NCBI RefSeq assembly: GCF_000020385.1 | Contig: NC_010814.1 | Span: forward strand, 1,530,001-1,562,000 | Length of the DNA: 32,000 nt | Direction of reading: 5' to 3' | From: Trichlorobacter lovleyi SZ | GTDB taxonomy: Bacteria > Desulfobacterota > Desulfuromonadia > Geobacterales > Pseudopelobacteraceae | In this document: in pieces, positions 8,593-21,623 of the stretch | How the letters are laid out: every line of letters starts with the position of its first letter | Numbering within the stretch: the stretch's first letter is position 1 | Position numbers and translations under genes: made by a program | Notes under the pieces: model-generated | What the model was told of the DNA's origin: nothing | The model's database searches: none | The model's input: only the letters and a program-made list of their open reading frames with translations

Positions 8593-9729
8593 TTATGACC
8601 TCATGGCTGCATCAGGGGCAATGGTGGCTGCCAGCCAGGCAGGGATAATGGTGGCCGCGGTGTAGGGCAGCACTGCAAGCACAAACAGCACCGAAAGCTG
8701 ATAGCCGTCAACAGCCGGCACCAGTTTGAACTGCGGGTACAGGATGGCCCAGCCTTTCAGGGCATGGGAGAACAGGGCGGCTGAGGAAAAGAAGACATGC
8801 AGGTAGGCCAGCAGTACACCGGCCAGGAAGGCGCTCAGCGAGATCACGGCTCCTTCCCAGAACTTCAGCAGCAGGACATCACCGGTCTCCCAGCCGATTG
8901 ACTTGAGGATGCCGATCTCCTTGCGCTCCTCTGCCGAGAGGCCGCTGGCCTTGTCCCAGGCAAAGATCACAAAGGAGAGCACTGCCGCTGCCAGGATTAC
9001 CACCATCATCCCGCCTCGCCAGTCAAACAGCGAATCATAGGTCCGCAACAGCTCGCTCTTCAGAATCGGGCGGGTGTCGGGAAACTGCTCAACAATCTTA
9101 TTGGCCACGGTCACCAGCTCACGGGGGTTGGCAACGGTCACTGCCAGGTCAGTGGCAACATCCTGCGGCATCCTGAACATGGTATGAAAATCCTCAGCTG
9201 CCATCAACACCAGATCAGCTGCCACCAGCTCCGAATGCTGCGGCAGGATACCGCTGACGGTCAGGAGCAGCGGCTTACCGCTATAGGAACGGAAGGTCAC
9301 CAGATCATCGGTCTTGATCCGCAGGTTTCCGGCAACGCCGCTGCCGATCATGATCGAACCGGGGGGGGGAGGCGCTGTATCCGGCACCAGCAGGGTGTAA
9401 TTGGCCTGAAAGACCGGGTCGTAGTAGTAGCCCCACAGGCGCGGCACCACCGCCGATACCCCGCGGATAGCGCCGATTTTCTCTGCATAGCCGACCGGTA
9501 TCAGGTCGTGGCGGCCGGCAATCATCCGCTGCACCACCATGTCGGGTGCCTCGGCCAGCAGCAGGGCCGCTTCCCGTTTCAGGGCCTGCACAAAAAAGAT
9601 CAGAGATGCAATCACAAAGATGATCAGGGTGTAGACCAGAAACAGGGAGATGTTTTTGGCCTTCCTCCGCATAAGTGAGGAGAGGGCAAAATCAAGGATA
9701 TTGCGGTGGCGGTTAAGGGCGTGGTGCAT
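8593..9729 (-). CDS. ABC transporter permease, FtsX/MacB-type (N-terminal TM, periplasmic domain, three C-terminal TMs)
   Basis: 378 aa. N-terminus ...FALSSLMRRKAKNISLFLV is typical of FtsX-family permeases. The C-terminal three-TM FtsX-like block includes ERKEIGILKSIGW. There is a 2-nt gap to the ATPase gene. Confidence 0.9.
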   Translation of the reverse strand: MHHALNRHRNILDFALSSLMRRKAKNISLFLVYTLIIFVIASLIFFVQALKREAALLLAEAPDMVVQRMIAGRHDLIPVGYAEKIGAIRGVSAVVPRLWGYYYDPVFQANYTLLVPDTAPPPPGSIMIGSGVAGNLRIKTDDLVTFRSYSGKPLLLTVSGILPQHSELVAADLVLMAAEDFHTMFRMPQDVATDLAVTVANPRELVTVANKIVEQFPDTRPILKSELLRTYDSLFDWRGGMMVVILAAAVLSFVIFAWDKASGLSAEERKEIGILKSIGWETGDVLLLKFWEGAVISLSAFLAGVLLAYLHVFFSSAALFSHALKGWAILYPQFKLVPAVDGYQLSVLFVLAVLPYTAATIIPAWLAATIAPDAAMRS

Positions 9730-10036
9730 AGGACCTCTGCAGGGTTGCGGGTGGTGTCACCAGTGAGCCGGATGGAAAATGCTCCAGGGCGGTCGGATGA
9801 TCCTGAAATGGCGCGTGCAGATCAGCCATGGCGGGATGACGGGTATAGCGGGCCTCGGTAAACAGGCAGAGATCGGTCAGGCGTAACCGGCGCACCAGTT
9901 GGGCCCGTTCCTGCAGCTCCGCGTTACGGGCGGTCCTGCTGCTGTGTGAGTGAATTCCCATCAGCAGCAGGACCGCCGTGCCGGTTGCGATCAGCAGTAT
10001 GAAGCCGGTGGAAGGGCGCATGGCTGCTCCGGTCAT
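9713..10036 (-). CDS. Small membrane-anchored hypothetical protein
   Basis: 107-aa ORF with one N-terminal TM (GFILLIATGTAVLLLMG). ATGA overlap with the upstream NosL stop and a 17-nt overlap with the permease start. No family recognised. Confidence 0.5.
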   Translation of the reverse strand: MTGAAMRPSTGFILLIATGTAVLLLMGIHSHSSRTARNAELQERAQLVRRLRLTDLCLFTEARYTRHPAMADLHAPFQDHPTALEHFPSGSLVTPPATLQRSYAPRP

Positions 10037-10503
10037 TCCAGTGTCTTCAGCAGGGCAGGAGTGATCTCATGAAACCTGACAATCCGTTTGCCTGCATGAT
10101 CTTTCAAAAACTCCTGCGCCTCGGCCAGCTTTGCAAGGGGGATCAGCTCATGCCCCATCGGTCCGTACACGTTGCTGCCGGTCACGTAGAAGGCGGTCCT
10201 GCCGTCAATCAGCTTCAGTGAATAGTAGTCCTTCACCTCAATGGCCGAGATCATGGCCGGTTTTCTGTCTGGTGCGTACCGGGACAGGTTGTTGAGGTAG
10301 CTGAACAGATCCTTGGCCCCGTCAAACCAGACTTGCCTACCGTCAGTGAATCTGATTGCAGCAGTCCAGGCCGGATACTTATGGACAAACATGCCGCAGA
10401 CCGGGCACTTGTCCTTTGGCCCCGGAGCTTGTGCTGCCAGAGTGACGGCGCTGTTCAGCCAGATGCAGGCAGTGACAGCAAACAGGAGCAGATAGCGGTT
10501 CAT
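10033..10503 (-). CDS. nosL: NosL-family (copper-chaperone-like) periplasmic/lipoprotein
   Basis: 156 aa with a signal peptide, the CPVCGM motif and NosL-like downstream conservation (FDGAKDLFSY..., GPMGHELIP). The symbol is used in the family sense only; no nosZ is present in the window. Confidence 0.8.
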   Translation of the reverse strand: MNRYLLLFAVTACIWLNSAVTLAAQAPGPKDKCPVCGMFVHKYPAWTAAIRFTDGRQVWFDGAKDLFSYLNNLSRYAPDRKPAMISAIEVKDYYSLKLIDGRTAFYVTGSNVYGPMGHELIPLAKLAEAQEFLKDHAGKRIVRFHEITPALLKTLE

Positions 10504-10571
10504 GGCTTGTTTCCTTTGCGGTGATCAGGACTGGCCGGATATCGTCAGATACCCGGCCAGGTTTATTCCAG

Positions 10572-11084
10572 CTAGTGATGACCGTCGTGCTTCATCTTCA
10601 TCATTTTGCGGCGTTCACGGATCATTCTGGTGTCATTGTACATATCTTCGTAGGCTGCCTTGATGGCGTCATCAAAGCTGCCCAGAGTCCCCTTGTGCGC
10701 CTTTATAAATGCCTCGGCATCCGCCTTGCTGGCAAAGGCCCACTTGGCCCGGGAGGTCATGACCCCCATCCTGTCACCGCCGATTACCCAGTGGGCGGTC
10801 TCTGCATCAATCAGCTTTTGGGTGGTGAAGTCCCCCACCTTGATGGAGGTCGGCATCTTGTCAATATTGTTGGCCAGTTCTACTGCCATGCAATGCAGGC
10901 TGCAGGTGCCGGTTGAACTGCCGTCCTGATAGGTCACCAGCATCCGGCTGTGGCTGAATCTGGTGCGGTCCATGCCGCAGTACTTACAGCTGTCCGGGCC
11001 TTCAACCTTGTCAGTGGCAGTCACCAGGGCAGCCGTTGTCAGTAAAAGGGTCAGGGTAGCCAGAAACTTCAGTAGGTTTTTCAT
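10572..11084 (-). CDS. Second NosL-like protein with His/Met-rich C-terminal tail
   Basis: Start moved to MKNLLKFLATL (ATG 11084), with AGGAGA 7 nt upstream. Contains a CKYCGM motif, CSLHC, and the tail RRKMMKMKHDGHH. Confidence 0.8.
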   Translation of the reverse strand: MKNLLKFLATLTLLLTTAALVTATDKVEGPDSCKYCGMDRTRFSHSRMLVTYQDGSSTGTCSLHCMAVELANNIDKMPTSIKVGDFTTQKLIDAETAHWVIGGDRMGVMTSRAKWAFASKADAEAFIKAHKGTLGSFDDAIKAAYEDMYNDTRMIRERRKMMKMKHDGHH

Positions 11085-11146
11085 TGTCTGTTCTCCTGTC
11101 TGGAATATGTGTAACGCGGTTTTTGCCTGCTGTCCATTGCAGCCCA

Positions 11147-13153
11147 CTAGAATTTATAGGCCATGGTCAGGTAGACGTTCCGTCCGTTTTCCGGAACGCG
11201 GTAGCCGACACCGCTGACAAAGGGGTCACGCAGATAAGACAGGTGGCTGTAGTACTGGGTGTCCAGAATGTTGTTGATGCCGCCGGTCACGGAGAACCCT
11301 TTGTACTGATAGCCTGCCTTCAGGTCAGTGGTTACCCACCCGGCAGTCTTTTGTTCGTTCAGGCTGCTGTCAATGCGATCCTGTTCGCGGCTGAGGGTCT
11401 CAAGCAGTTCGGCAAAGAAGCTGCCGTTGTCATAGCGGATGGAGATGGTGCCTTTCAGGGGCGGCATCTCGGACAGCGGGCGATTGCCGCTGATATTTCG
11501 CCCTTCGGTGTAGGAAAGGGTGCCCCTCAGAAACAGGTCGGCCGGCAATGAAACCTGGCTACCCAGTTCGGCACCCCAGATGCTGGCATGGATATTCTGA
11601 TAGCTCTTCAGGGTAGCGGAGGCCTGGTAGAAGTTCACGTAATCCTGCAGGTCGCTGTAAAAGATCGAGGCATTGACATAAAAACGATCCGTTGCGTACT
11701 TGGCTCCAAGGTCAGCCTGATGGTTGACGGTTGCCTTGAGGCCCTGGTTGCCGCGCCAGGCCGGGTTCCCCGGCAGATCAAGAAACAGTTCCTGCTGGTC
11801 GGGGGTGCGGGTGCCCCGTCCCAGGCCGGTGAAGATCACCAGTTCCTTGAAGGGGGTGTAGTTCAGCTGCAGGTTTGCGCTGATGGTGCTGAATTCCTTT
11901 GAACTGCCGGCAGTCACCATGGTGTTGGCTCTGTCTGCCTTGGCCCGGGTCAGATCGCCACGTACGCCGCCGGTCAGGCTTAGTTTGCCGCCAAGCGGCA
12001 GGGTATACTCACCGAACAGGCCGAAGTTTTCAATCGTCACATCCGGGATCATGGCAAGGTCGCGGTAGTTAAAATACATGGCCCGGCGATTGGTGGCATC
12101 CCAGTTGCGGTTGTAGTAGTCCAGCCCGCTCTTCAGACTGCCCGGTCCGAGCTTCAGCTCTGCCTGCAGTTTTGCTCCATAGGTCTGGGTGGAGGCATCG
12201 GTCTGCATGGAATAGAACCGTGGTGATGTGCTGGAGCTGAAGCGGCTGCGGTCATCCATCAGGTGTTCAACCCGGTCCCAGTAGACCTGCAGCTTCAGAT
12301 CCTGCAGCAGTGCCGAGAGGTTCTGAATCCGGTAGCTCCAGTTCATACGGTCGGTCCTGTCGTAGTCGGCATCCATCTTCAGGTAGGGGTAGAGGACATG
12401 GTCCGCATCCTGATAGGTATAGCTGAGCTCCGTGCGTGAATTGGCAGTCGGGTTAAGCCCCAGCTTGCCCCAGCCGGTGTTGATCTCGTAGGCCTTGGAG
12501 TCAATGGCGGTGTTCTTGTAACGGTTCGGGCTGGTTGCGGGATAGATCTGGGTCAGCAGCTTGCCGTTGCCGGACTGGGGGACATCGGAATATTTGTAGG
12601 CGTAGCCCATCAGGGCATCATAGCGCTCTGTGCCATAGGATGCGGTGGCCGCAGCATTGGTGCCGTGCCAGTCGCCGTATCCCAGGCTGAGCTCACCGCC
12701 AAATCCCTTGCCCGGCCGTTTGGTCTGGGCGTCAATCAGACCCCCCAGGCCACCGGGGTTGGAGAGATCATAGGGGCCCTTGATGATCCTGACCTGCTCA
12801 ATCTCGGCAAAATCATAGTGGAACGACGGCGGGTCCATTCGGGAGGGGCAGGCGCCATGCAGGCGGACGCCATCCACCAGGACGTTGATATTGTCCTTCT
12901 GAAAGCCGCGCAGCACCACATCATTGGCAATTGCCCCCTTGTGGACAATGTTGATTCCTTCCACCTGTTTCAGGGCCTCACCCATATCCCTGGCTGGACT
13001 TTCACGAACTTCCCGGACAGAAAGACTCTCTTCCTTCGGTGATTCCTTGTCGGCGCGGACAATGATTTCATCAAGCAGCAGATGTTCGGCACGGGCTGTC
13101 TGGGCTGTCAGTGTCAGCAGCAGCGCCAGCAGCGAAAGCTGTTGTACGGTCAT
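11147..13153 (-). CDS. TonB-dependent outer-membrane receptor
   Basis: 668 aa. Signal peptide, then a plug region (DEIIVRA...VEGINIV...LRGF), a long beta-barrel, and a C-terminus ending ...YLTMAYKF. GGAGGA RBS. Confidence 0.95.
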   Translation of the reverse strand: MTVQQLSLLALLLTLTAQTARAEHLLLDEIIVRADKESPKEESLSVREVRESPARDMGEALKQVEGINIVHKGAIANDVVLRGFQKDNINVLVDGVRLHGACPSRMDPPSFHYDFAEIEQVRIIKGPYDLSNPGGLGGLIDAQTKRPGKGFGGELSLGYGDWHGTNAAATASYGTERYDALMGYAYKYSDVPQSGNGKLLTQIYPATSPNRYKNTAIDSKAYEINTGWGKLGLNPTANSRTELSYTYQDADHVLYPYLKMDADYDRTDRMNWSYRIQNLSALLQDLKLQVYWDRVEHLMDDRSRFSSSTSPRFYSMQTDASTQTYGAKLQAELKLGPGSLKSGLDYYNRNWDATNRRAMYFNYRDLAMIPDVTIENFGLFGEYTLPLGGKLSLTGGVRGDLTRAKADRANTMVTAGSSKEFSTISANLQLNYTPFKELVIFTGLGRGTRTPDQQELFLDLPGNPAWRGNQGLKATVNHQADLGAKYATDRFYVNASIFYSDLQDYVNFYQASATLKSYQNIHASIWGAELGSQVSLPADLFLRGTLSYTEGRNISGNRPLSEMPPLKGTISIRYDNGSFFAELLETLSREQDRIDSSLNEQKTAGWVTTDLKAGYQYKGFSVTGGINNILDTQYYSHLSYLRDPFVSGVGYRVPENGRNVYLTMAYKF

Positions 13154-13221: not shown

Positions 13222-13791
13222 TCAGACAGGCTTTGGAGGGGGGAGCAACGGCCTGGATGAGGGCGAGTGCAGAGTGCTGACGGGGGAGGGTGGATAGGGT
13301 GATTTTTCAGGCGGCACAATGACCACCCGGTAGATAAACGGCATGCCTTCATTGCCCTGGCTATTAAGCAGTGCGGACTGGCTGCTGTCACCGCAGGGGC
13401 AGCCGCAGCTGAGAACCGTCTCTGCAGCCTGTGGTGCGGGCAGTTCGGCCTGCCGGGTAGTGATGGTTTCTTCCAGTACGGCGTGGACCGATTCGGCGGA
13501 CAGCGTGGTGTGACAGCAATCAGCCGTGTTGGCGGCAGATTCCGGAGGACGGTTTTCCGGCTGCTTTTTCTTCCAGCAACAGCAGGTGCGATTCAATTGA
13601 CTCTGCAGGGAACAGCCGTCCCGCGTGCAGTCTCCGCTGCAGGCAACCCGGCCGTCGTGGGCATGCTGATGCGGTTGGAGCGCCAGTGAGGGCAACGGTC
13701 CCGCTGCAATCAGCAGGTAGATGGCGGTCATCAGGGCGGCAATGCCCCGTCGCAGCGGTCTCAGAGAGGTATGTGCGGGTGTCGGTGGCAT
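13222..13791 (-). CDS. Cys/His-rich secreted or membrane-anchored hypothetical protein; first gene of the operon
   Basis: I prefer ATG 13791 (MPPTPAHTSL...), with AGGAG 7 nt upstream, over the track's TTG at 13824. One TM/signal segment (IAALMTAIYLLIAAGPL). Motifs HQHAHD, CSGDCTRDGC, CCCW, DCCH and CGCPCG, followed by a Pro-rich tail. Confidence 0.65.
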   Translation of the reverse strand: MPPTPAHTSLRPLRRGIAALMTAIYLLIAAGPLPSLALQPHQHAHDGRVACSGDCTRDGCSLQSQLNRTCCCWKKKQPENRPPESAANTADCCHTTLSAESVHAVLEETITTRQAELPAPQAAETVLSCGCPCGDSSQSALLNSQGNEGMPFIYRVVIVPPEKSPYPPSPVSTLHSPSSRPLLPPPKPV

Positions 13792-13819: not shown

Positions 13820-13835
13820 ATCAAGAACCGTGCCG
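13820..13835 (-). promoter_or_regulatory. Sigma-54-like -24/-12 element upstream of the Cys-rich/TonB/NosL/ABC operon
   Basis: The minus strand reads CGGCACG-GTTC-TTGAT. The GG-to-TTG spacing matches TGGCACG-N4-TTGCW, but -12 has GA instead of GC. It ends about 28 nt upstream of ATG 13791, leaving room for a short leader with AGGAG. It is part of a 19-mer repeated at 17032..17050. Confidence 0.5.
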
Positions 13836-13897
13836 TTGGTGCTAAGTGTCTGATATTAAACGTTTGTTTAAATGTTGTTGAGTTGGTTGGTTTTTTG

Positions 13898-13917
13898 TTG
13901 TCTTATTTTGAGACAGG
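13898..13917. promoter_or_regulatory. Inverted-repeat motif TGTCTTA-TTT-TGAGACA (candidate activator binding site / UAS) in the divergent intergenic region
   Basis: TTGTCTTATTTTGAGACAGG is 16/20 identical to 16897..16916. It lies about 70 nt upstream of the -24 element at 13835 and about 60 nt upstream of the kinase start. Confidence 0.4.
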
Positions 13918-13973
13918 CGTTATGGTGCTCACACACGTAGCGTATCCTTGCCTTTCATGACAGGTCAGCGACT

Positions 13974-15557
13974 ATGGCACCTCACCGGAAAAAGCTTTGT
14001 GCCCTGCTGGATGACTCGGGCAAAACAGTTGGCAGGGCAGAGATAATCCAGCAATTTCCCGCCCTGATCTGGCACTCGGGCTTTGATGCCCGTTGTGATT
14101 ATTTTAACCAGACCTGGCTGGCGTTTACCGGCCGGACCCTGGCGCAGGAACTGGGGGATGGCTGGGCAGAGGGGGTTCACCCCGATGATCTGCCGGATTG
14201 TCTCACAACCTACCGGGAGGCGTTTGCGGCCCGGCAGCCGTTTACCATGGAATACCGTCTGCGCTACCATGACGGTTCCTATCGCTGGATTGTTGATCAC
14301 GGTGCTCCCCACTATGCCATTGACGGCTGTTTCTGCGGTTATATCGGCAGTTGCTACGACATTACCCCCCAAAAAGAGTCCGAACGGTCACTGCAGATCT
14401 CCCGGGTTGAGCTGGAGCAGCGGATAGAGCAGTGTTCCTGTGATCTGCAAAAAAGCCATGATCTTCTGAACAGTCTCTCCCAGCAGGTTCCCGGCGGGAT
14501 CTACCAGTTTCAGATGTTTTCCGACGGCCGCTACTGCGTCCCCTATGCCAGCCGGACCATGCTTGAGCTTTTCGAGATTACCCCCGAAGATATTCAGTAC
14601 GATGCAACCTGTCTCTTTGATCGGGTCCTGCCGGATGAGCTGCCCGGCGTGATCGACTCGATTCAGGAGTCTGCCGTTACCCAGACCCCCTGGCACCGCG
14701 AATTCCGGGCGGCTATTCCGTCGAAAGGGATACGCTGGTTCCAGGCTGATTCACGCCCCCGCCGGCAGCCGGACAACAGTGTGATCTGGTGTGGTTTTGT
14801 CACTGATATTACCGAACGCAAGGAGCTTGAACGCCAGCTGGTTGAGGCGCAGCGTCTGGAGTACATCGGCCAGCTGGCAGCCGGGGTGGCCCATGAGGTC
14901 AGAAACCCCCTGAATGCCATCCTGACCGTCACCGAGGCGCTTTTCCGGGAGGAGGGGGTCGAGGGCAATCAAACCTTGACTCCCTATATTGAGCATATCC
15001 GTTCCCAGGTTGTCCGGCTTGCCCGGCTGATGAACGATCTGCTCAGCCTGGGACGGCGCCAGCAGGAAGATCAACTGGTGCCGCTGGCACTGGCTGAATT
15101 TTGCCGCCAGACCGCACAGCTCTGGCAGGAGAGTAGTCCGGCGGGCCACCGTCGGCTGGCGCTGGAGATCCCCCCTGAGGCGGAAACCGCGCTGGCCCGT
15201 GCGGACAAAGATCGTTTGCAGCAGGTGTTGTTTAACCTCCTGGATAACGCCGGGCAGCACAGTCCGCCGGAGAGCAGCATCAGCCTGGTACTTGACCAGC
15301 CTCACGTCTCTGCCGGGGAGCGACACCTGCGGTTGCGGGTGATTGATCAGGGCAGCGGGGTGGCGCCTGGCCTGTATGAAAGGGCTTTTGAACCGTTTTT
15401 TACCACCCGCAAGGGGGGCACCGGATTGGGGCTTGCCCTGGTGAAACAGTTTGTCGATCAGATGGGAGGGATGGTGCAGATCTGTAATAATGATCCTGAA
15501 CCGGGCTGCACGGTTACGTTGCAGTTACAGCCGGCGCCGGAGGAATGCCTGTCATGA
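13974..15557 (+). CDS. Soluble sensor histidine kinase with two PAS domains
   Basis: 527 aa with no TM segment. PAS-like blocks (WIVDHGAP..., GIRWFQADSRP...VTDITERKE). H-box AAGVAHEVRNPLNAI. N/G boxes NLLDNAGQH and GTGLGLALV. Confidence 0.95.
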   Translation: MAPHRKKLCALLDDSGKTVGRAEIIQQFPALIWHSGFDARCDYFNQTWLAFTGRTLAQELGDGWAEGVHPDDLPDCLTTYREAFAARQPFTMEYRLRYHDGSYRWIVDHGAPHYAIDGCFCGYIGSCYDITPQKESERSLQISRVELEQRIEQCSCDLQKSHDLLNSLSQQVPGGIYQFQMFSDGRYCVPYASRTMLELFEITPEDIQYDATCLFDRVLPDELPGVIDSIQESAVTQTPWHREFRAAIPSKGIRWFQADSRPRRQPDNSVIWCGFVTDITERKELERQLVEAQRLEYIGQLAAGVAHEVRNPLNAILTVTEALFREEGVEGNQTLTPYIEHIRSQVVRLARLMNDLLSLGRRQQEDQLVPLALAEFCRQTAQLWQESSPAGHRRLALEIPPEAETALARADKDRLQQVLFNLLDNAGQHSPPESSISLVLDQPHVSAGERHLRLRVIDQGSGVAPGLYERAFEPFFTTRKGGTGLGLALVKQFVDQMGGMVQICNNDPEPGCTVTLQLQPAPEECLS

Positions 15558-16891
15558 AACCGCAGATTTTGCTGATTGAAGACTGTGCCGTAACCCGCTT
15601 CGGAGTGGTCCGTTATTTTTCAAAGGACGGCTATCAGATCAGTGAAGCCGGATCACTGGCCGAGGCCACCAGGTTGATGGCTGAGCGACGTTTTGACCTG
15701 ATTATCATTGATGTCAACCTGCCCGACGGTAACGGCCTTGACTTGATCAGAGCCGAACGGGAGGCCCAGAATCTGGTGCCGATTATTGTGGTTACCGGCG
15801 CCGGAGATATCCCCCTGGCGGTTGAGGCGATGCAGTGCGGCGCCGACAACTTTCTGACCAAACCGCTTGATATGCCGGCCCTTTCGATTTCGCTGGCCAA
15901 ATCCCTTGAGCTGGGAACGCTTAAACGGCAGTCAATGGCCCGCAAGCGGATGGAAAAACAGCTGGGCATCTTTTTTGGCGCCACACCGGCCATGCAGGAG
16001 GTGCAACAGGTTGCCCGGATGGCTGTTGACAACGCCCATCCGGTGCTGATCACCGGTGAAACCGGTACCGGCAAGGGGATGCTGGCCAAGTGGATTCACC
16101 AGCAGGGCTGCCGTGCCCAGTACGAGTTTGTTGAGTTGAACTGCTCAAGTCTGCGGGGGGAGATGCTCTCCCGCGAGCTGTTCGGTGCCCAGCGGGGGGC
16201 CTACACCTCGGCCGATCAGGACCGTCGCGGGCTGGTTGATGTTGCTGACCGCGGCAGTCTGTTTCTGGACGAGATCGGCGATATGAGCAGTGAAGTGCAG
16301 GCCCAGTTTCTCAAACTGCTTGAAGACAAGACTTACCGGCGGCTGGGGGATGTCAAACTGCTGAAAAGCGACTTCCGGCTGATCTGCGCCACCCACCGCG
16401 ACCTGCATGCCTTCTGTGCCGATGGTCAGTTTCGGCAGGATCTGTTCTACCGGATCAACCTGATCCATATCCATCTTCCACCTCTCAGGGAGCGCCGGGA
16501 GGACTTGCCGGCCATTACCTCCTACCTGCTCAACCTGCTGGGGGCAACTGATCAGGTGCTGACTGACGAGGTGCGAGGGCTGCTGTTCTCCTATGACTGG
16601 CCCGGCAATATCCGTGAAATGCGCAACGTGCTGGAGCGGGCCCTGCTGCTGACCCCGCCGGGCGGCACCCTGCGGCACTCACTGTTTTCCTGTATAAACG
16701 GTGGGCAGCGGCCCTGTCCAATCCATCTGTCTGCAGAGCCTCAGACCGTGCAGCAGGTTGAAACGGCCCATATTCAGGCCGTCCTTGCCCAGCATGGCGG
16801 TAATGTGGATAAGGCCGCCAAGGCATTAAACCTTTCCCGCGCCACCCTCTATCGCCGCCTCAAGCAACTCAGAGATGAGGGAGGCTGCTGA
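15554..16891 (+). CDS. NtrC-family sigma-54-dependent response regulator (REC, AAA+, Fis-type HTH)
   Basis: REC domain (ILLIEDC...DLIIIDVNLPDGNG). Walker A GETGTGKG, Walker B LFLDEIGDM, sigma-54 contact loop variant GAYTSA, HTH ...AAKALNLSRATLYRRLK. ATG 15554 makes an ATGA overlap with the kinase stop and sits 9 nt after GGAGGA; the in-frame ATG 15545 is an alternative. Confidence 0.95.
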   Translation: MKPQILLIEDCAVTRFGVVRYFSKDGYQISEAGSLAEATRLMAERRFDLIIIDVNLPDGNGLDLIRAEREAQNLVPIIVVTGAGDIPLAVEAMQCGADNFLTKPLDMPALSISLAKSLELGTLKRQSMARKRMEKQLGIFFGATPAMQEVQQVARMAVDNAHPVLITGETGTGKGMLAKWIHQQGCRAQYEFVELNCSSLRGEMLSRELFGAQRGAYTSADQDRRGLVDVADRGSLFLDEIGDMSSEVQAQFLKLLEDKTYRRLGDVKLLKSDFRLICATHRDLHAFCADGQFRQDLFYRINLIHIHLPPLRERREDLPAITSYLLNLLGATDQVLTDEVRGLLFSYDWPGNIREMRNVLERALLLTPPGGTLRHSLFSCINGGQRPCPIHLSAEPQTVQQVETAHIQAVLAQHGGNVDKAAKALNLSRATLYRRLKQLRDEGGC

Positions 16892-16916
16892 GACAGCTGT
16901 CTCATCTTGAGATAGG
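16889..16916. promoter_or_regulatory. Perfect 16-bp palindrome TGAGACAGCTGTCTCA overlapping the regulator stop codon, extended by TCTTGAGATAGG (candidate UAS and/or terminator hairpin)
   Basis: Read directly from the sequence. 16897..16916 (CTGTCTCATCTTGAGATAGG) matches 13898..13917 at 16/20 positions. It lies about 130 nt upstream of the 17035 element. Confidence 0.45.
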
Positions 16917-17034
16917 CCGTATCATCCCGCCCCCTGTCTATGGGGCAACGGGGGGCTGTTGAAAGGCCTCAACATACGTCTGTAGCAGTATTGTCCGCGG
17001 TCTTGTGCATGCTGCAGGTGTATCGTTTGCACAA

Positions 17035-17050
17035 CGGCACGGTTCTTGAT
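17035..17050 (+). promoter_or_regulatory. Second copy of the sigma-54-like element CGGCACG-GTTC-TTGAT
   Basis: The same 16-mer as at 13820..13835; the full 19-mer caacggcacggttcttgat spans 17032..17050. It ends 12 nt before ATG 17063, which would imply a nearly leaderless transcript or a different role such as an operator. Confidence 0.4.
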
Positions 17051-17062: not shown

Positions 17063-17515
17063 ATGTCCAGTCCCGCATCACATACCTGTTGCCGCCCCGA
17101 TTGCCTCTGTGACCGGGTCCTGATCGTCGATGACGAGCCGGGCATCCTGTTTGCCTATCGCAAACTGCTGGAACAGAAGGGGCTGGTTGTTGATAGCTGT
17201 GACTGTCTCTGCGAGGCGCTCGACTATCTGGAAAAGCATCATTATCTGGCCGTGGTCGCCGATATGCGCTTGCAGGGTACCGATACCATGGACGGCCTGG
17301 ATCTGGTTCGGGAGGTACGCCGGCGTCAGCCCGCAGCCGGAATTATTGTCGCATCCGGCACCAGCGACCAGAAGACACGTCAGTCCGCGTCCGAGCTGGG
17401 GGTTGATCACTACCTTGAAAAACCGATCCATCCCTCCCGTATCCTTGATCTGTTGATTCAACTTCGAAATACCGTTCATGGCGAAGAGCTGCTGCCCGCC
17501 CCTGAAACAGGGTAG
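17063..17515 (+). CDS. Single-domain (REC-only, CheY-like) response regulator with a short Cys-rich N-terminal extension
   Basis: RVLIVDDEPGILFAYRKLLE...AVVADMRLQG...IIVASG...HYLEKP. N-terminus MSSPASHTCCRPDCLCD. The start is uncertain: ATGs at 16940 and 17009 are in frame but would place the 19-mer inside the CDS. Confidence 0.75.
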   Translation: MSSPASHTCCRPDCLCDRVLIVDDEPGILFAYRKLLEQKGLVVDSCDCLCEALDYLEKHHYLAVVADMRLQGTDTMDGLDLVREVRRRQPAAGIIVASGTSDQKTRQSASELGVDHYLEKPIHPSRILDLLIQLRNTVHGEELLPAPETG

Positions 17516-17668: not shown

Positions 17669-18331
17669 ATGAGACCGTTGCTTGTCCTGGCTGTTCTGGC
17701 CGTTGCTACCCAGGCCTGTGCCCTTGAGCCACCCAAAACTGAAGAACAAAAGACCCTGTATGCCATTGGCCAGACCGTGTCACGCCAGTTGTCGGTCTTT
17801 AATCTGAGCGCGGATGAATTCCAGTATGTGCTGCTGGGCCTGACCGATGCCCAATCCGGCAATAAGGCGGCGGCAGAGCCTGCCCAGTACAACCGTAAGA
17901 TTCAGGAACTGGCCCGGTCCCGCCGGGCTGCCCATGCCCAGAAGCTTGGCCCGGCCAACAAAGAAGCCCTTGAAAAAGCTGCCAAGGAGCAGGGGGCCGT
18001 CAAGAGCGCCTCAGGGCTGATCTACCTTCCGGTGAAGGAGGGGAACGGCGCGCAACCGAAGCTGACCGATACGGTACGGGTCAATTACCGCGGTATCCTC
18101 GTTGATGGCAAAGAGTTTGACAGTTCCTACAAACGGGGCAATCCACTCGAGTTTAAGCTGGATAGCGTCATTAAATGCTGGACTGAAGGGGTACAGAAGA
18201 TGAAGGTGGGGGGGAAGGCAAAGCTGACCTGCCCTGCCGCACTGGCCTATGGTGAACAGGGAGCCGGCGACCTTATTCTGCCGGGTGCTACCCTCCAGTT
18301 TGAGGTTGAATTGCTTGATATCAAAAAATAA
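17669..18331 (+). CDS. Periplasmic FKBP-type peptidyl-prolyl cis-trans isomerase (FkpA/Mip-like, with N-terminal dimerisation helix region)
   Basis: Signal peptide MRPLLVLAVLAVATQACA. FKBP core VRVNYRGILVDGKEFDSSY...FKLDSVIKCWTEGVQKMKVGGKAKLTCPAALAYG...LQFEVELLDI. Confidence 0.95.
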   Translation: MRPLLVLAVLAVATQACALEPPKTEEQKTLYAIGQTVSRQLSVFNLSADEFQYVLLGLTDAQSGNKAAAEPAQYNRKIQELARSRRAAHAQKLGPANKEALEKAAKEQGAVKSASGLIYLPVKEGNGAQPKLTDTVRVNYRGILVDGKEFDSSYKRGNPLEFKLDSVIKCWTEGVQKMKVGGKAKLTCPAALAYGEQGAGDLILPGATLQFEVELLDIKK

Positions 18332-18355
18332 CCGTTGTCCGAACGGAGTGTCCCC

Positions 18356-18937
18356 ATGAAACGTCATCTGTCCCGGTTGATCTGTCTGCTGCTGTTTCTG
18401 CCGGTTTTAATGGTTTGTGCTGCATCCCCTGCCATGGCTGCACCGGTTACCTACAAGCGAACCGTTGAAAAGTATCAGGTGCCGGATGTGATTCTGACCA
18501 ACCAATTCGGCAAAAAGGTCCGGCTGAAGACGTTGCTGGAGTCCGGGCGTCCGGTGGCCGTTGATTTTATCTATGCCACCTGTACCACCATCTGTCCGGT
18601 GCTTTCCGCCGGGTATACCAATCTGCAACGAAAACTGGGGGCGGACAGTGTCAAAGTGCAACTGGTCTCCATCACCATTGACCCGGAAAATGATAATCCG
18701 AAGGTTCTCAAGGAGTATCTGCAACGCTACCAGGCCAAACCGGGGTGGGATTTTCTGACCGGTAGCCGGAAGGATATTGACCGGGTCATGCATGCCTTTG
18801 ACGCCTATTTCCGCGACAAGATGGACCATAAGCCGCTCACCTTCATACGGGGGGCGGATGGCTCCTGGATCAGGCTTTACGGTCTGATCAGCAGTAGTGA
18901 ATTTCTGGCAGAATACAAAAAAGCGGGGCTCCTATGA
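18356..18937 (+). CDS. SCO1/SenC-family thioredoxin-fold copper chaperone
   Basis: Start moved to MKRHLSRLI (GGAG 8 nt upstream). CxxxCP motif (ATCTTICPV), SITIDPENDNP, WDFLTG, and a downstream His (MDHKPL). Confidence 0.9.
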   Translation: MKRHLSRLICLLLFLPVLMVCAASPAMAAPVTYKRTVEKYQVPDVILTNQFGKKVRLKTLLESGRPVAVDFIYATCTTICPVLSAGYTNLQRKLGADSVKVQLVSITIDPENDNPKVLKEYLQRYQAKPGWDFLTGSRKDIDRVMHAFDAYFRDKMDHKPLTFIRGADGSWIRLYGLISSSEFLAEYKKAGLL

Positions 18938-20625
18938 CACTACGTACGAAACTGCCGGCAGAACAGGTCTTAATGGTGCTGTTGAGTATAGCTCTCTGTC
19001 TTGCCCTGGGCGCAGCTGCCTGGGCTGCCCCTTCAGACGAAACCATGCGGTTCGGGGAGCAGATGTACCGCAAAGGGCTGCTCCCCTCCGGGGCTCCCAT
19101 CAAGGCCTATGTCAGCGGCGATGTGCCGGTGGACGGCACATCGTTCACCTGCGTCAGTTGCCATCTGCGCAGCGGACTCGGCTCTATTGAAGGGGAGGTC
19201 ATCACGCTACCGACCAACGGGAGGATCCTGTATCAGCCGAGAAGGCCGTTTATCCCCGGCTCCGAGTTTGTTCCTTCCTACTCCAACTATGCAAAATACC
19301 TGCCGGAGCGTCCTGCCTATACCGACGATTCGCTGGCTGCGCTGATCCTGACCGGTATTGACCCCACCGGCCGGTCGGTTCTGAAGGTCATGCCCCGTTA
19401 CGACCTGGGCGACAAGGATATGGCGATTATGATCAGCTATCTGAAATCACTTTCTGATCAGCCGCCTCCCGGCGTGACCAAAGAAGAGATCAGGTTTGCC
19501 ACGGTCATTGTTGAAGGGACTGACCCGGTTGCGGTGCAGTCGATGCTGGCCCCCCTGCAGTTCAGTATTGACCGCAAGAACAGCCTGGCTACCGCCGCAG
19601 TGAAAAATCATCGTGTGGCGCGGATGGGCTACAACATGCTGGGAGATCTTTCCGCCCTCAAATTTTCACTGTCACGCTGGACGCTCAAGGGGGCTCCGGC
19701 AACCTGGCTGTCTCAGCTGGAAGAATACTACCGCAAGGAGCCGGTCTTTGCCTTGCTGGGTGGTATCTCGGAAGGGGAGTGGGAGCCGGTGCACCGCTTC
19801 TGCGAAGAGAAAAAGATCCCCAACCTGTTTCCGGTTGTAGACTACCCGGTACTCTCGGATACAGACTGGTATACCCTCTATTTCTCGCGTGGGGTCCGCC
19901 AGGAGGGCGAAGCTGCGGCCCGCTATCTGCACGGCATGGCCGAGCTGTTTAAAGGCAGGCCGGTACTGCAGCTGTACCGGGCCGGTCGCAAAGGGCAGGC
20001 CCTGGCAGCAGGATTCAGGGAGTCCTGGAAGACTGCCGGTGGTGGTGCGATAACAGAGGTCCGTCTGCCTGCCAATGAAAAGCTGACGGCAAAAAAGGTA
20101 CGGCAACTGGTTAACCGGAAAAATCCGGCAGCCCTGGTTCTTTGGGATGATGCAGCGTCACTGCCGGCACTGTCAGGGCTGGCAGCGCAGAAAAAGCGGC
20201 CCGGTCTGGTCCTTGCCTCCGGCACCTATCTGGGCAAGGCGCTGTGGACGATCCCGGAAGAATTGCGAGCTCTGCTCTATCTGACCTACCCCTATCGCCT
20301 GCCCCAGGAGGACAGCCGCTTTGACGTCAATGTCAAGCGGGTGCTGCAGGGTAGACCACTTGAACTGTATGAACAGAGGATCGTCAGGCAGTCCTATCTT
20401 ACCGGCGAAGTGCTTGGCAAGGCGTTGATGATGATGCGCGGCGAATATTACCGCGATTACCTGTATGATGTGATCGGTATGATGTCGGACATGCACTACC
20501 CCCTGTATGAACGGGTCAGTTTCGGGCCGGGCCAGCGCTATGCCTCCAAGGGCTCCTATATTGTGCAGTTGGGCAGTGGCAGGAATCCCGTGCTCGAACG
20601 CCGCAGTGAATGGGTAATACCGTGA
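18934..20625 (+). CDS. Fusion protein: monoheme cytochrome c domain plus type-1 periplasmic solute-binding (LivK-like) domain
   Basis: ATGA overlap with the SCO1 stop. Signal peptide. A single CVSCH heme motif with a candidate axial Met (KVMPRY). The C-terminal ~380 aa resemble branched-chain amino-acid type binding proteins (alternating beta-alpha pattern, KKIPNLFPV...). Confidence 0.8.
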   Translation: MTLRTKLPAEQVLMVLLSIALCLALGAAAWAAPSDETMRFGEQMYRKGLLPSGAPIKAYVSGDVPVDGTSFTCVSCHLRSGLGSIEGEVITLPTNGRILYQPRRPFIPGSEFVPSYSNYAKYLPERPAYTDDSLAALILTGIDPTGRSVLKVMPRYDLGDKDMAIMISYLKSLSDQPPPGVTKEEIRFATVIVEGTDPVAVQSMLAPLQFSIDRKNSLATAAVKNHRVARMGYNMLGDLSALKFSLSRWTLKGAPATWLSQLEEYYRKEPVFALLGGISEGEWEPVHRFCEEKKIPNLFPVVDYPVLSDTDWYTLYFSRGVRQEGEAAARYLHGMAELFKGRPVLQLYRAGRKGQALAAGFRESWKTAGGGAITEVRLPANEKLTAKKVRQLVNRKNPAALVLWDDAASLPALSGLAAQKKRPGLVLASGTYLGKALWTIPEELRALLYLTYPYRLPQEDSRFDVNVKRVLQGRPLELYEQRIVRQSYLTGEVLGKALMMMRGEYYRDYLYDVIGMMSDMHYPLYERVSFGPGQRYASKGSYIVQLGSGRNPVLERRSEWVIP

Positions 20626-20642
20626 AAAGAAAAGAGGATATT

Positions 20643-20993
20643 ATGATCAGACAAGGCATCCTGGCACTGTTGGCTCTGTTTCTGTTGCTGGCGCCTGCTG
20701 CAGATCTGTTGGCTGCCGCTGCAGATGTGACGATCTACATCGTGAGCGATTATCGTTATCTGCCGGGTAAGGCAAAAGGCGACCCGGTAATGGGACAGTC
20801 TCTGTGCGGTACCCGCTGTAATGCCCTTTCAACCAATTATCTGAATATTGTCGAGCCTGGCGGTTGGCGTCTGATCAAAGTTGCCGGCGGACGCGTATTG
20901 ACCGTACCACTCAATAATCCTTTCATGGGGGGGGATTGCGTCTGTGTCGTGGACGAATACATGGTGAAGGTCGATCATCTCAACAAACCGTAG
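20643..20993 (+). CDS. Small secreted hypothetical protein with four Cys
   Basis: Start moved to MIRQGILALLALFLLLAPA (AGAGGA RBS). 116 aa. Cys positions: CGTRC and GGDCVCV. No family recognised. Confidence 0.6.
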   Translation: MIRQGILALLALFLLLAPAADLLAAAADVTIYIVSDYRYLPGKAKGDPVMGQSLCGTRCNALSTNYLNIVEPGGWRLIKVAGGRVLTVPLNNPFMGGDCVCVVDEYMVKVDHLNKP

Positions 20994-21150: not shown

Positions 21151-21166
21151 CGGCATGCTCTTTGCT
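21151..21166 (+). promoter_or_regulatory. Sigma-54 promoter candidate upstream of the small-protein / multicopper-oxidase pair
   Basis: CGGCATG-CTCT-TTGCT shows the correct GG-N10-GC geometry against TGGCACG-N4-TTGCW. It lies about 125 nt upstream of ATG 21292. Confidence 0.6.
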
Positions 21167-21291: not shown

Positions 21292-21555
21292 ATGAAAATC
21301 CCGACAACACTCGTAACTGGAGTACTGATGGCCGCGCTGCTCGCTGTGACGGCATCGGCAGAAGCCCAGCTGCAAAAGCGTCAGCCGGTGCAGTTGAATC
21401 CGGCGGTAAACAGCAAGGTGCCGCAGGCCCAGAAGGCCACCGTGCAAAAGCGTGAGCTGGCACGACAACAGCGTGACAAGAAGCTGAAGGTGAGGGCAGC
21501 TAACACGCAGAGAAAAGGCGGTCCGACCTCGCTTCCGAAACCTGTGCATCGGTAG
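21292..21555 (+). CDS. Small secreted, highly basic Lys/Gln/Arg-rich hypothetical protein
   Basis: Start moved to MKIPTTLVTGVLMAALLAVTASAEA (AAGGAG 8 nt upstream). The mature part is low-complexity (QKRQPVQ...KKLKVRAANTQRKGG). No family recognised. Confidence 0.55.
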   Translation: MKIPTTLVTGVLMAALLAVTASAEAQLQKRQPVQLNPAVNSKVPQAQKATVQKRELARQQRDKKLKVRAANTQRKGGPTSLPKPVHR

Positions 21556-21623
21556 CGGAACACATGATTCGAGGAGATGGTAACGACATTTGAACAAACT
21601 GTAGTAGTCAACTGGAGGCGCGT

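What the first reader, a model, noticed from the sequence alone, without database searches (positions are those of the whole stretch)
13820..17050. Identical 19-mer with sigma-54 -24/-12 geometry flanks the two-component system in outward-facing orientation
caacggcacggttcttgat occurs on the minus strand at 13820..13838 and on the plus strand at 17032..17050. An exact 19-nt match is unexpected by chance in 32 kb. Both copies contain CGGCACG-N4-TTGA and point away from the HK/RR genes toward ORFs whose products begin with Cys-rich segments. The -12 element has GA rather than the canonical GC. The second copy ends only 12 nt before the ATG, which would give a near-leaderless transcript. So the motif could be a non-canonical RpoN promoter or a shared operator.
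Basis: seen in the sequence. Interest (0 to 1): 0.7.

Follow-up and report, generated by a model that had tools for sequence, protein, structure and literature searches.

The report
Paired sigma-54 promoters, copper-enzyme regulon
The repeated 19-mer is the core of two sigma-54 promoters through which the activator encoded between them most likely switches on copper-import genes and a giant copper-oxidase cluster; this is an ordinary arrangement with two conserved oddities, an A where nearly all such promoters have a C, and a start codion placed so close that the message should have no leader.

Summary
CAACGGCACGGTTCTTGAT occurs exactly twice, at 13820-13838(-) and 17032-17050(+), facing outward from a PAS histidine kinase and an NtrC-type sigma-54 activator (EBP).

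It is not a dispersed repeat. A 19-mer scan of JGI metagenomes found this locus plus seven unrelated singletons.

Orthologous loci from 12 Desulfuromonadales species give 19 sites at the same two positions. All keep a 16-bp core, C-GGCAYG-N-TTY-TTGAT, while the flanks drift. The -12 base is A in 17, T in 2 and never the canonical C.

A GTCTC-N5-GAGAC dyad lies 71-189 bp upstream of every site. In the window this dyad occurs three times only. The third copy precedes a third, canonical (TTGC) sigma-54 promoter at 21152-21166.

The three promoters drive:
- a copper-uptake operon (TonB copper receptor, two NosL, ABC transporter);
- an operon of a receiver protein, FKBP, SCO1 and a MofC-like protein;
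- a 1601-aa OmpB/MofA-like multicopper oxidase.

In 12 of 12 species the receiver's ATG lies 12-15 nt after the -12 base with no Shine-Dalgarno, which predicts a leaderless mRNA.

Verdict: sigma-54 promoters of one regulon, a variant of a known kind. No experimental evidence is available.

The parts
13820..13838 (-). Left sigma-54-type core promoter. GG is at 13834-13833 and the -12 base (A) at 13821. The predicted start is near 13809, giving an ~18-nt leader with AGGAG before the ATG at 13791.
   Evidence: The same element sits at the same place in 7 species that have the NosL operon here. It is absent in L094 and L106, which lack that operon. In L107 a NosL operon abuts the kinase gene across a 50-nt gap with no recognisable -24/-12 element.
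17032..17050 (+). Right sigma-54-type core promoter. GG is at 17036-17037 and the -12 base (A) at 17049. The predicted start is near 17061, 0-3 nt before the ATG at 17063.
   Evidence: Present in 12 of 12 species examined, always 12-15 nt before the receiver's ATG.
13899..13915 (.). Left enhancer (UAS) dyad TGTCTT-ATTTT-GAGACA. Its centre is 73 bp upstream of the left GG.
   Evidence: (invariant block).
16890..16914 (.). Right enhancer. The dyad TGTCTC-ATCTT-GAGATA is at 16898-16914, with an extra GAGACA half-site at 16890-16895 that overlaps the activator's TGA stop codon. Its centre is 130 bp upstream of the right GG.
13843..13855 (-). IHF-like site TATCAGACACTTA (1 mismatch to WATCAANNNNTTR) between the left enhancer and promoter.
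   Evidence: The block is partly conserved in alignment A1. This is a weak, consensus-only inference.
13898..13926 (+). Candidate sigma-70 promoter of the kinase-activator operon, TTGTCT-17 nt-TATGGT. Its -35 is the left half of the enhancer dyad.
   Evidence: TATGGT (read as ACCATA in A1) is conserved in 6 of 7 species and 4 of its 6 positions are invariant. The tool's stricter sigma-70 scan found nothing in this region. This is inference only.
13974..15557 (+). Soluble histidine kinase with two PAS domains, HisKA and HATPase_c.
   Evidence: No hydrophobic N-terminal segment is visible in the translation.
15554..16891 (+). NtrC-type sigma-54 enhancer-binding protein (receiver, AAA+ Sigma54_activat, Fis-type HTH). 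Its L1 loop reads GAYTSA instead of GAFTGA.
13222..13791 (-). First gene of the left operon, a 189-aa Cys/His-rich protein with an N-terminal hydrophobic segment and no family match.
6867..13153 (-). Rest of the left operon: TonB-dependent receptor (best match is the copper receptor family), two NosL genes, a 102-aa ORF, an FtsX-type permease, an ABC ATPase and a 332-aa unknown.
17063..17515 (+). 150-aa single-domain response regulator with an N-terminal H-x-C-[CS]-x3-4-C tag and no Shine-Dalgarno. It is the predicted leaderless first gene of the right operon.
   Evidence: T. thiogenes and four other species have no upstream in-frame start codon. The 168-aa gene call swallows the promoter.
17669..20993 (+). 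FKBP prolyl isomerase (MofB-like), SCO1 copper chaperone, cytochrome c fused to a periplasmic-binding domain (MofC-like), and a 116-aa ORF.
   Evidence: The cluster type is described in PMC5566968.
21027..21080 (.). Third enhancer region. The dyad GTCGC-ACTAT-GAGAC is at 21038-21052, with GTCTC/GAGAC half-sites set in a 17-nt inverted repeat.
   Evidence: L095, L105 and L093 carry a clean GTCTC-N5-GAGAC or GAGAT dyad at the equivalent place.
21152..21166 (+). Third sigma-54 promoter, GGCATG-CTCT-TTGCT, with the canonical -12 GC. It is the top PWM hit of the window.
21292..26429 (+). 87-aa ORF followed by a 1601-aa OmpB/MofA-like multicopper oxidase. The oxidase carries four 297-bp tandem repeats at its 3' end (25248-26423).
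   Evidence: (HxH and HCHxxxH copper motifs visible).

Best explanation
The two 19-mers are the -24/-12 cores of two sigma-54 (RpoN) promoters belonging to one small regulon.

Proposed mechanism, with each step marked as shown or inferred:

1. The soluble PAS kinase (13974-15557) phosphorylates the NtrC-type activator (15554-16891). This is inferred from the domain architecture.
2. The activator binds the 17-bp dyads TGTCTC-N5-GAGACA, which lie 71-189 bp upstream of each promoter. The dyads and their positions are shown. Binding is inferred.
3. By DNA looping, possibly helped by IHF on the left side, the activator uses ATP to open the closed sigma-54 holoenzyme complex. This rests on established knowledge of the family.
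4. The left promoter then transcribes a copper-acquisition operon: a Cys-rich membrane protein, a TonB copper-type receptor, two NosL genes and an ABC transporter.
5. The right promoter transcribes a Cys-tagged stand-alone receiver followed by FKBP/MofB, SCO1 and MofC-like genes.
6. A third promoter of the same kind, but with the canonical -12 GC, drives the giant OmpB/MofA-type multicopper oxidase at 21152-21166.

Both 19-mer promoters deviate from consensus in the same conserved way, with C instead of T before GG and A instead of C at -12. From published work on the -12 C, this should loosen the 'lock' on the closed complex and change basal or induced output. That consequence is inferred.

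At the right promoter the predicted start falls 0-3 nt before the receiver's ATG, and there is no Shine-Dalgarno. The receiver would then be made from a leaderless mRNA, and only from transcripts that begin at this promoter, not from read-through out of the activator gene. This is also inferred. The receiver would plausibly act as a phosphate sink or feedback element.
For: Repeat and context
- The exact repeat is real and above chance.
- The gene between the copies has Sigma54_activat (3e-57), a receiver domain and HTH_8.

Conservation
- There are 19 sites in 12 species whose activators share 62-100% identity with the window's.
- The conserved positions are G after GGCAY in 17 of 19, TT in 17-18 of 19, the -12 base (A 17, T 2, C 0) and a following T in 18 of 19. 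Information content drops to background outside the 16-bp core.
- The core closely resembles the G. sulfurreducens RpoN consensus TTGGCACGGTTTTTGCT (PMC2725144), matching 13 of 17 positions.

PWM scan
- A PWM built from that paper's promoter list ranks the two copies 3rd and 4th in the window, at 13.0 bits against a training median of 14.1. An intergenic third site ranks 1st.

Enhancer dyads
- Every site has a GTCTC-N5-GAGAC dyad with at most 1 mismatch 71-189 bp upstream.
- In the whole 32-kb window that dyad occurs only three times, once upstream of each promoter, against 0.55 expected by chance.

Controls
- L094 and L106, which lack the left operon, also lack the left promoter and dyad.
- 80 loci fetched with the activator as query (78 of them around distant activators of at most 44% identity, about 650 kb) contain no CGGCACG-N4-TTGAT.
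- The 19-mer scan of JGI metagenomes returned this locus plus 7 unrelated singletons.

Leaderless geometry
- The ATG lies 12-15 nt after the -12 base in 12 of 12 species and the start codon is always ATG.
- Five species have no alternative in-frame start, and three have an in-frame stop 12-15 nt upstream.
- The receiver has no Shine-Dalgarno, whereas most neighbouring genes do.

Literature
- The -12 C is conserved in 96% of sigma-54 promoters and keeps basal transcription in check (PMC4551910).
Against: - There is no transcription-start, RpoN-binding or expression data for this organism or its relatives.
- The rpoN gene itself could not be looked for, because only this window and its flanks are available.
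- The PWM score alone is not significant: 0.82 sites of at least 13.0 bits are expected per 32 kb.
- The -12 C, a hallmark of the family, is missing.
- The activator's sigma-54-contacting loop is GAYTSA, not GAFTGA. Some EBP-like proteins with altered loops work with sigma-70 instead (VpsR, abstract of PMC6158489).
- The conservation table selected sites with a regex that fixes GGCA[CT] and TTG, so only the other columns are independent evidence.
- The leaderless claim depends on the usual 11-12 nt distance between -12 and the start, which can vary by a few nt.
Confidence: 0.85

Rival explanations
1. The 19-mer is an operator for a DNA-binding regulator, either a repressor or the activator itself. 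It would be shared by the two divergent units and would not be a promoter.
For: It is an exact shared sequence close to two gene starts. At the right site it would overlap any transcription start.
Against: The element is asymmetric and always oriented toward the gene. The conserved bases are those of the -24/-12 elements at the canonical spacing. A separate, truly palindromic conserved site exists upstream of each copy and fits a dimeric Fis-type HTH far better. The stand-alone receiver has no DNA-binding domain.
Confidence: 0.05
2. The right copy merely sits inside a sigma-70 promoter, TTGCAC (17027-17032), an 18-nt spacer, then TGTGAT (17051-17056). That promoter would also start transcription at about the ATG.
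For: These hexamers can be read in the window sequence. The predicted start would again be near 17063.
Against: The tool's sigma-70 scan finds no site anywhere in 13000-18000. The putative -10 lacks the A at position 2. The equivalent positions in L104, L106, L107 and L108 (GCAGTT, GGGAGC, GACAAC, GAATAA) are not -10-like, while GGCAYG/TTGA is kept in all. This reading also does not explain the left copy.
Confidence: 0.05
3. The 19-mer is a copy of a dispersed repeat or mobile-element end, or a product of chance or gene conversion, with no regulatory role.
For: Exact identity extends over about 6 positions that vary between species (caa, and the spacer g..c). Some convergence or conversion in this lineage is therefore possible.
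Against: The arms are exactly 19 nt and the flanks are unrelated. Only this locus carries the 19-mer among contigs of the same organism in JGI metagenomes, and the 7 other hits are unrelated singletons in other organisms. The two positions are conserved in 12 species with diverged flanks.
Confidence: 0.02

Closest known systems
Classical NtrC-type sigma-54 regulons (glnAp2/NtrBC, ZraSR, AtoSC): a kinase and activator operon flanked by the sigma-54 promoters it controls
   Same: The activator has the same receiver, AAA+ and Fis-HTH architecture. The GG-N10-G(C) core geometry is the same. A 17-bp dyad enhancer lies at variable distance upstream, and the target operons are adjacent. The possible overlap of an enhancer with the regulator operon's own sigma-70 promoter recalls glnAp1/NtrC (own knowledge).
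   Different: The -12 C is replaced by A or T in 19 of 19 sites, and the T before GG by C in 15 of 19. The L1 loop is GA(Y/F)TSA rather than GAFTGA in all 120 best homologs. One target gene starts 12-15 nt after the -12 base. The best NCBIfam matches (NtrC, AtoC, LuxO, ZraR) are all far below their cut-offs, so it is not an equivalog of any named regulator.
Geobacter sulfurreducens RpoN promoters (consensus TTGGCACGGTTTTTGCT; Leang et al. 2009, PMC2725144)
   Same: 13 of 17 positions are identical, including the G+T-rich spacer. The PWM score is close to the training median.
   Different: In that list the -12 position is C in 81 of 90 and A in 3 of 90. Here it is never C. The G. sulfurreducens ompB-cluster genes GSU1394, GSU1397 and GSU1398, and their neighbours GSU1399-1400, are not in that paper's predicted RpoN regulon.
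OmpB/MofA multicopper-oxidase gene clusters (mofABC of Leptothrix; GSU1394-1398 of G. sulfurreducens), as described in PMC5566968
   Same: The gene set is the same: a giant secreted multicopper oxidase, an FKBP-type isomerase (MofB), a cytochrome c plus periplasmic-binding-domain protein (MofC) and a SCO1 chaperone.
   Different: Here the cluster is joined to a dedicated kinase, activator and receiver module and to a TonB/NosL/ABC copper-uptake operon, all behind sigma-54 promoters. I found no description of such regulation. Direct sequence comparison with OmpB or MofA was not done.
Leaderless bacterial mRNAs
   Same: There is an AUG start codon in 12 of 12 species, no Shine-Dalgarno, and the promoter abuts the start codon.
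   Different: Leaderless transcripts are, to my knowledge, usually described for sigma-70-type promoters. Only 9 papers in the library mention both sigma-54 and leaderless, and none of them do so in the title or abstract. The start site here is predicted, not mapped.

Membership tests
sigma-54 (RpoN) -24/-12 promoter | GG doublet within a TGGCAC-like -24 element | tested here: met
   CGGCACG in both copies. GGCA[CT] is present at all 19 orthologous sites. This is partly imposed by the search regex, but the following G occurs in 17 of 19 and was not imposed. The base before GG is C rather than the usual T.
sigma-54 (RpoN) -24/-12 promoter | GC doublet within a TTGCW -12 element | tested here: not met
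   TTGAT in both copies. Across 19 sites the base is A in 17, T in 2 and C in 0. C is reported in 96% of known promoters (PMC4551910). The G, the two preceding Ts and the following W are present.
sigma-54 (RpoN) -24/-12 promoter | Fixed spacing, with ten bases between GG and the -12 G(C) | tested here: met
   GGCACG-N4-TTGA matches TGGCACG-N4-TTGC exactly, without indels, at all 19 sites.
sigma-54 (RpoN) -24/-12 promoter | Cognate enhancer-binding protein and an upstream activating sequence | tested here: met
   An adjacent gene has PF00158 at 3e-57. Dyads lie 71-189 bp upstream of every site and nowhere else in the window.
sigma-54 (RpoN) -24/-12 promoter | Transcription depends on sigma-54 holoenzyme and starts about 12 nt downstream of the -12 element | not testable with these tools
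   This needs 5'-end mapping and rpoN or activator mutants. The rpoN gene could not be searched for in the source genome. RpoN is essential in G. sulfurreducens (PMC2725144).
NtrC-family bacterial enhancer-binding protein | Receiver, AAA+ sigma-54 interaction domain and Fis-type HTH | tested here: met
   Response_reg 4e-25, Sigma54_activat 3e-57, HTH_8 7e-14.
NtrC-family bacterial enhancer-binding protein | GAFTGA loop that contacts sigma-54 | tested here: inconclusive
   The loop is GAYTSA here and in 29 of the 120 best homologs, including all 20 that share at least 72% identity. It is GAFTSA in the other 91, and never GAFTGA. Neither variant appears in the searchable literature. The functional consequence is unknown.
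Leaderless mRNA | 5' end at or within a few nt of an AUG start codon, with no Shine-Dalgarno | tested here: inconclusive
   The geometry is conserved (12-15 nt from -12 to ATG in 12 of 12), the start is always ATG, and there is no Shine-Dalgarno. The 5' end itself is only predicted.
OmpB/MofA multicopper-oxidase cluster | Giant secreted multicopper oxidase together with MofB-like isomerase, MofC-like cytochrome/PBP protein and SCO1 | tested here: met
   Domain matches, and copper-binding His motifs in the translation. The cluster definition is from PMC5566968. Direct homology to OmpB or MofA sequences was not tested.
Dispersed repeat (REP/MITE-like) | Many copies per genome, with a repeat unit longer than the match | tested here: not met
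   There are two copies in 32 kb and the arms are exactly 19 nt. The metagenome scan shows no further copy in contigs of this organism.

The most novel reading that the evidence does not exclude
This would be a distinct, deliberately sub-consensus class of sigma-54 promoter (C-GGCAYG-N-TTY-TTGAT, lacking both the -26 T and the -12 C). It would be served by an activator subfamily with an undescribed sigma-54-contacting loop, GA(Y/F)TSA. Its right-hand copy would fire a truly leaderless mRNA, so that a Cys-tagged, possibly metal-binding, stand-alone receiver is made only from sigma-54-initiated transcripts and never from read-through. That would be a built-in feedback device for a copper-supply and multicopper-oxidase regulon in Geobacter relatives.
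Probability: 0.25. Interest if true: 0.65.

Novelty: new variant of a known kind. Interest (0 to 1): 0.42.

Why it matters
- It assigns a regulator, three promoters and an enhancer motif to the OmpB/MofA-type multicopper-oxidase clusters of Geobacter relatives. G. sulfurreducens needs OmpB to reduce insoluble Fe(III) oxides (PMC5566968), and I found no description of how such clusters are regulated.
- It links that oxidase to a dedicated copper-import operon.
- It provides a natural, evolutionarily conserved set of sigma-54 promoters without the -12 C. These could test, in a native setting, the in vitro idea that this base locks the closed complex.
- If the start sites are confirmed, it would be an example of sigma-54-dependent leaderless expression.
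- On the practical side, automatic gene calls for the receiver (168 aa) run through the promoter and should be shortened to 150 aa.

Tried and rejected
- The genome-contig scan with the activator as query was swamped by generic activator motifs (WPGNIREM, FLDEIGDM). It returned mostly distant paralogs, of which only L013 and L015 were relevant. Its one use was as a negative control.
- My first promoter regex had a wrong spacer (N6) and missed sites. This was corrected.
- Counting the -12 base in the 78 distant-activator loci was uninformative because there were too few matches (A4, C4, G6, T3).
- The Barrios 1999 and Wang/Guo/Gralla 1999 papers are not held. I relied on their citation in PMC4551910.
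- A strict co-variation between the variant GA(Y/F)TSA loop and the non-C -12 base was considered and downgraded. The third promoter carries the same enhancer dyad yet has a canonical TTGC.
- Rfam found no RNA family in 9000-23000. The only hits were spurious miRNA-hairpin matches to the 21035-21088 inverted repeat.
- The G. sulfurreducens RpoN promoter list does not include the ompB-cluster genes searched for, GSU1394 and GSU1397-1400.
- The 168-aa gene call for the receiver was rejected, because relatives have in-frame stops and no upstream start.

Full report
**1. The observation**

CAACGGCACGGTTCTTGAT occurs exactly twice in the 32-kb window, at 13820-13838 on the minus strand and 17032-17050 on the plus strand. 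There is no further match at up to three mismatches, and none of 100 dinucleotide-preserving shuffles gave two matches. The repeat finder reports the pair as inverted arms of exactly 19 nt at 100% complementarity, with unrelated flanks. Both copies read CGGCACG-N4-TTGA and face outward. In several strains of the same species the left copy begins cTAACGG, so the identity there is 18 nt.

**2. Surroundings**

Two genes lie between the copies. One is a soluble histidine kinase with two PAS domains (13974-15557). The other is an NtrC-type sigma-54 enhancer-binding protein with receiver, Sigma54_activat (3e-57) and Fis-type HTH domains. Its start on public record is the ATG at 15554.

To the left, on the minus strand, the operon contains:
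- a 189-aa Cys/His-rich protein with no family match;
- a TonB-dependent receptor whose best NCBIfam match is the copper receptor family;
- two NosL genes;
- a 102-aa ORF;
- an FtsX-type permease;
- an ABC ATPase;
- a 332-aa unknown.

To the right the genes are:
- a single-domain response regulator;
- an FKBP prolyl isomerase;
- a SCO1 copper chaperone;
- a cytochrome c fused to a periplasmic-binding domain;
- a 116-aa ORF;
- an 87-aa ORF;
- a 1601-aa multicopper oxidase.

This right-hand set is the OmpB/MofA cluster type. That type comprises a giant extracellular multicopper oxidase, a MofB isomerase, a MofC cytochrome/PBP protein and SCO1, as described for G. sulfurreducens GSU1394-1398 and Leptothrix mofABC (PMC5566968). 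The organism is a Trichlorobacter-like member of the Geobacter group: the T. thiogenes activator is 88% identical.

**3. Not a dispersed repeat**

An exact 19-mer scan of the JGI metagenome contigs returned eight stretches. That collection includes samples that hold this organism. One stretch is this locus (98.8% identical over 11.3 kb). The other seven are singletons in unrelated sequence with G+C from 46 to 66% and no similarity to the window. The motif CGGCACG-N4-TTGAT is absent from 80 loci fetched with the activator as query. Of these, 78 surround distant activators of at most 44% identity and total about 650 kb. The limit is that no complete genome of the species could be scanned.

**4. 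Comparative evidence**

I fetched orthologous loci whose activators are 62-88% identical: L011 (T. thiogenes), L012, L093, L094, L095, L104, L105, L106, L107, L108 and L015.

- *Right site.* It is present in 12 of 12 species, between the activator gene and the stand-alone receiver.
- *Left site.* It is present in the 7 species that have the NosL operon there.
- *Internal control.* The left site is absent in L094 and L106, which have other genes on that side.
- *L107.* There a NosL operon abuts the kinase gene across a 50-nt gap, and I found no recognisable promoter.

Aligning the 19 sites shows a sharply bounded 16-bp element, C-GGCAYG-N-TTY-TTGAT. My regex imposed GGCA[CT] and TTG, so the independent evidence comes from the other positions:

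| Position | Result |
|---|---|
| Base before GG | C in 15 of 19 |
| Base after GGCAY | G in 17 of 19 |
| TT in the spacer | 17-18 of 19 |
| -12 base | A 17, T 2, C 0 |
| Base after -12 | T in 18 of 19 |

Information content is at background on both sides of the element. The spacing is invariant and equals that of the canonical TGGCACG-N4-TTGCW. The core matches 13 of 17 positions of the G. sulfurreducens RpoN consensus TTGGCACGGTTTTTGCT (PMC2725144).

**5. PWM scan**

I built a matrix from the 90 seventeen-mers of that paper's predicted promoter list and scanned the window. The two copies rank 3rd and 4th at 13.0 bits, against a training median of 14.1, despite the penalty for A at -12. Rank 1 (15.5 bits) is an intergenic site at 21150-21166. 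The score alone is not significant, since 0.82 sites of at least 13.0 bits are expected per 32 kb. The case rests on context and conservation.

**6. The real operator is a separate palindrome**

Alignments of both intergenic regions show a second invariant block, the dyad TGTCTC-N5-GAGACA. With at most one mismatch it lies 71-189 bp upstream of all 19 sites. The distance is a fixed 73-74 bp on the left and variable on the right, where it is sometimes present as two dyads about 19 bp apart.

In the whole window this dyad occurs only three times, against 0.55 expected by chance:
- 13900-13914;
- 16899-13913;
- 21038-21052.

Each copy lies upstream of one of the three sigma-54-like promoters. A 17-bp dyad at variable distance is what a dimeric Fis-type HTH of an NtrC-family activator is expected to bind (own knowledge of the family). 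The 19-mer is therefore the polymerase site and the dyad is the enhancer.

**7. A third promoter**

GGCATG-CTCT-TTGCT at 21152-21166 precedes the 87-aa ORF and the multicopper oxidase. It is conserved in L012, L095 and L093, and has the canonical -12 GC. Relatives carry a clean GTCTC-N5-GAGAC or GAGAT dyad upstream of it (L095, L105, L093). The same activator therefore probably drives three units: copper uptake, the accessory and chaperone genes, and the oxidase.

**8. The two conserved oddities**

*(a) The -12 base.* It is never C. Published work states that this C is conserved in 96% of sigma-54 promoters and keeps basal, activator-independent transcription in check. Non-consensus -12 sequences correlate with bypass transcription (PMC4551910, citing Barrios 1999 and Wang, Guo & Gralla 1999). 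In the G. sulfurreducens list the position is C in 81 of 90 and A in 3 of 90. My inference is that these are deliberately sub-consensus promoters with a looser closed-complex lock. The direction of the effect on output is not known.

*(b) The receiver's start codon.* The ATG lies 12-15 nt (mostly 13) after the -12 base in 12 of 12 species, and the start codon is always ATG.
- Five species have no alternative in-frame start upstream.
- Three species have an in-frame stop 12-15 nt upstream.
- There is no Shine-Dalgarno, whereas most other genes in the window have one.

With the usual 11-12 nt between -12 and +1, the transcript would start 0-3 nt before the AUG, making it a leaderless mRNA. The scan found no terminator-like site between the activator gene and this promoter. 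Read-through transcripts would therefore carry the receiver's AUG internally without a ribosome-binding site. The leaderless design would tie receiver synthesis to firing of this promoter. This is inference and no start site has been mapped. Only 9 papers in the library mention both sigma-54 and leaderless, and none of them do so in the title or abstract.

**9. Rival explanations**

- *A shared operator.* This is unlikely. The element is asymmetric and gene-directed, its conserved bases are the -24/-12 bases, and a true palindrome exists separately.
- *A sigma-70 promoter in the window.* TTGCAC-18-TGTGAT can be read at the right site, but it fails the tool's criteria. The corresponding hexamers are not conserved in L104, L106, L107 or L108.
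- *Repeat element or chance.* These are excluded by sections 1, 3 and 4.
- *Residual question.* It is not explained why this species has identity over all 19 nt, including about six positions that vary between species. Constraint explains 12-13 positions. The rest may be chance, convergence or local conversion.

**10. Comparison with known systems**

The system works like a classical NtrC-type two-component sigma-54 regulon. It is not an equivalog of any named regulator, because all NCBIfam matches are far below their cut-offs.

As a sigma-54 promoter it meets the GG, spacing, activator and enhancer criteria. It fails the -12 C criterion. Dependence on RpoN cannot be tested here.

The activator's sigma-54-contacting loop is GAYTSA in 29 of the 120 best homologs, including all 20 that share at least 72% identity. 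It is GAFTSA in the other 91, and never GAFTGA. Neither variant appears in the searchable literature. A strict link between this loop and the non-C -12 base is not supported, because the third promoter has TTGC.

**11. Verdict**

The 19-mer pair is real and is best explained as two sigma-54 promoters of a copper-supply and multicopper-oxidase regulon controlled by the activator encoded between them (confidence about 0.85). The arrangement is a known kind. The conserved A at -12, the C before GG, the predicted leaderless receiver mRNA and the variant activator loop make it a variant worth a few experiments rather than a new type of system. Interest is 0.42.

Noticed in passing
window 21027-21166: A third sigma-54-type promoter, GGCATGCTCTTTGCT, has the canonical -12 GC and is the top PWM hit of the window. 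It is preceded by the same GTC(G/T)C-N5-GAGAC dyad, set inside a 17-nt inverted repeat, and lies upstream of an 87-aa ORF and the 1601-aa multicopper oxidase.
   Followed up: partly
window 15554-16891 (activator residues about 205-217): The sigma-54-contacting L1 loop reads GAYTSA instead of GAFTGA. All 120 best homologs have GAYTSA (29) or GAFTSA (91). Neither string occurs in the searchable literature.
   Followed up: partly
window 13898-13926 (+): TTGTCT-17 nt-TATGGT is a candidate sigma-70 promoter for the kinase-activator operon. Its -35 is the left half of the enhancer dyad, and TATGGT is conserved in 6 of 7 species. This suggests autorepression when the activator binds, as at glnAp1.
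   Followed up: partly
window 17063-17120 (receiver residues 1-19): The stand-alone receiver carries an N-terminal H-x-C-[CS]-x3-4-C(-x-C) tag. The tag is conserved in the eight closest species examined (activator identity 66-100%; window, L011, L012, L093, L095, L104, L105) and absent in L094, L015, L106, L107 and L108. It is a possible metal-binding site on a receiver domain.
   Followed up: partly
window 17009-17515; L001-L010: Public gene calls give the receiver 168 aa, starting at the ATG at 17009, which places the promoter inside the CDS. Relatives show that the true start is the ATG at 17063 (150 aa). In L107 the call is too short and starts at VDDE.
   Followed up: yes
window 25248-26423: Four near-identical (99%) tandem copies of a 297-bp unit (99 aa) lie at the 3' end of the multicopper-oxidase gene. 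Orthologs differ in length (1485-2764 aa), so the copy number probably varies.
   Followed up: no
window 29-328 vs 2370-2669, and 657-902 vs 2995-3240 and 3256-3501: Long direct repeats (68-94% identity) link the 793-aa multihaem cytochrome gene with sequence at the left edge of the window. This suggests a paralogous gene or an internal domain duplication.
   Followed up: no
window 4288-6705 (-); L106 7522-10656: A secretin with a C-terminal cohesin domain lies near the regulon in the window. In L106 the homologous kinase, activator and receiver module is followed by a cohesin-domain protein and an MshE/T2SS ATPase instead of copper genes. The module may control secretion-linked surface proteins in other lineages.
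   Followed up: no
window 17516-17668: There is a 153-nt gap between the receiver and FKBP genes with a terminator-like hairpin at 17585-17599. T. thiogenes has only 35 nt at this position. Possible attenuation or a separate transcript boundary in this species was not examined.
   Followed up: no
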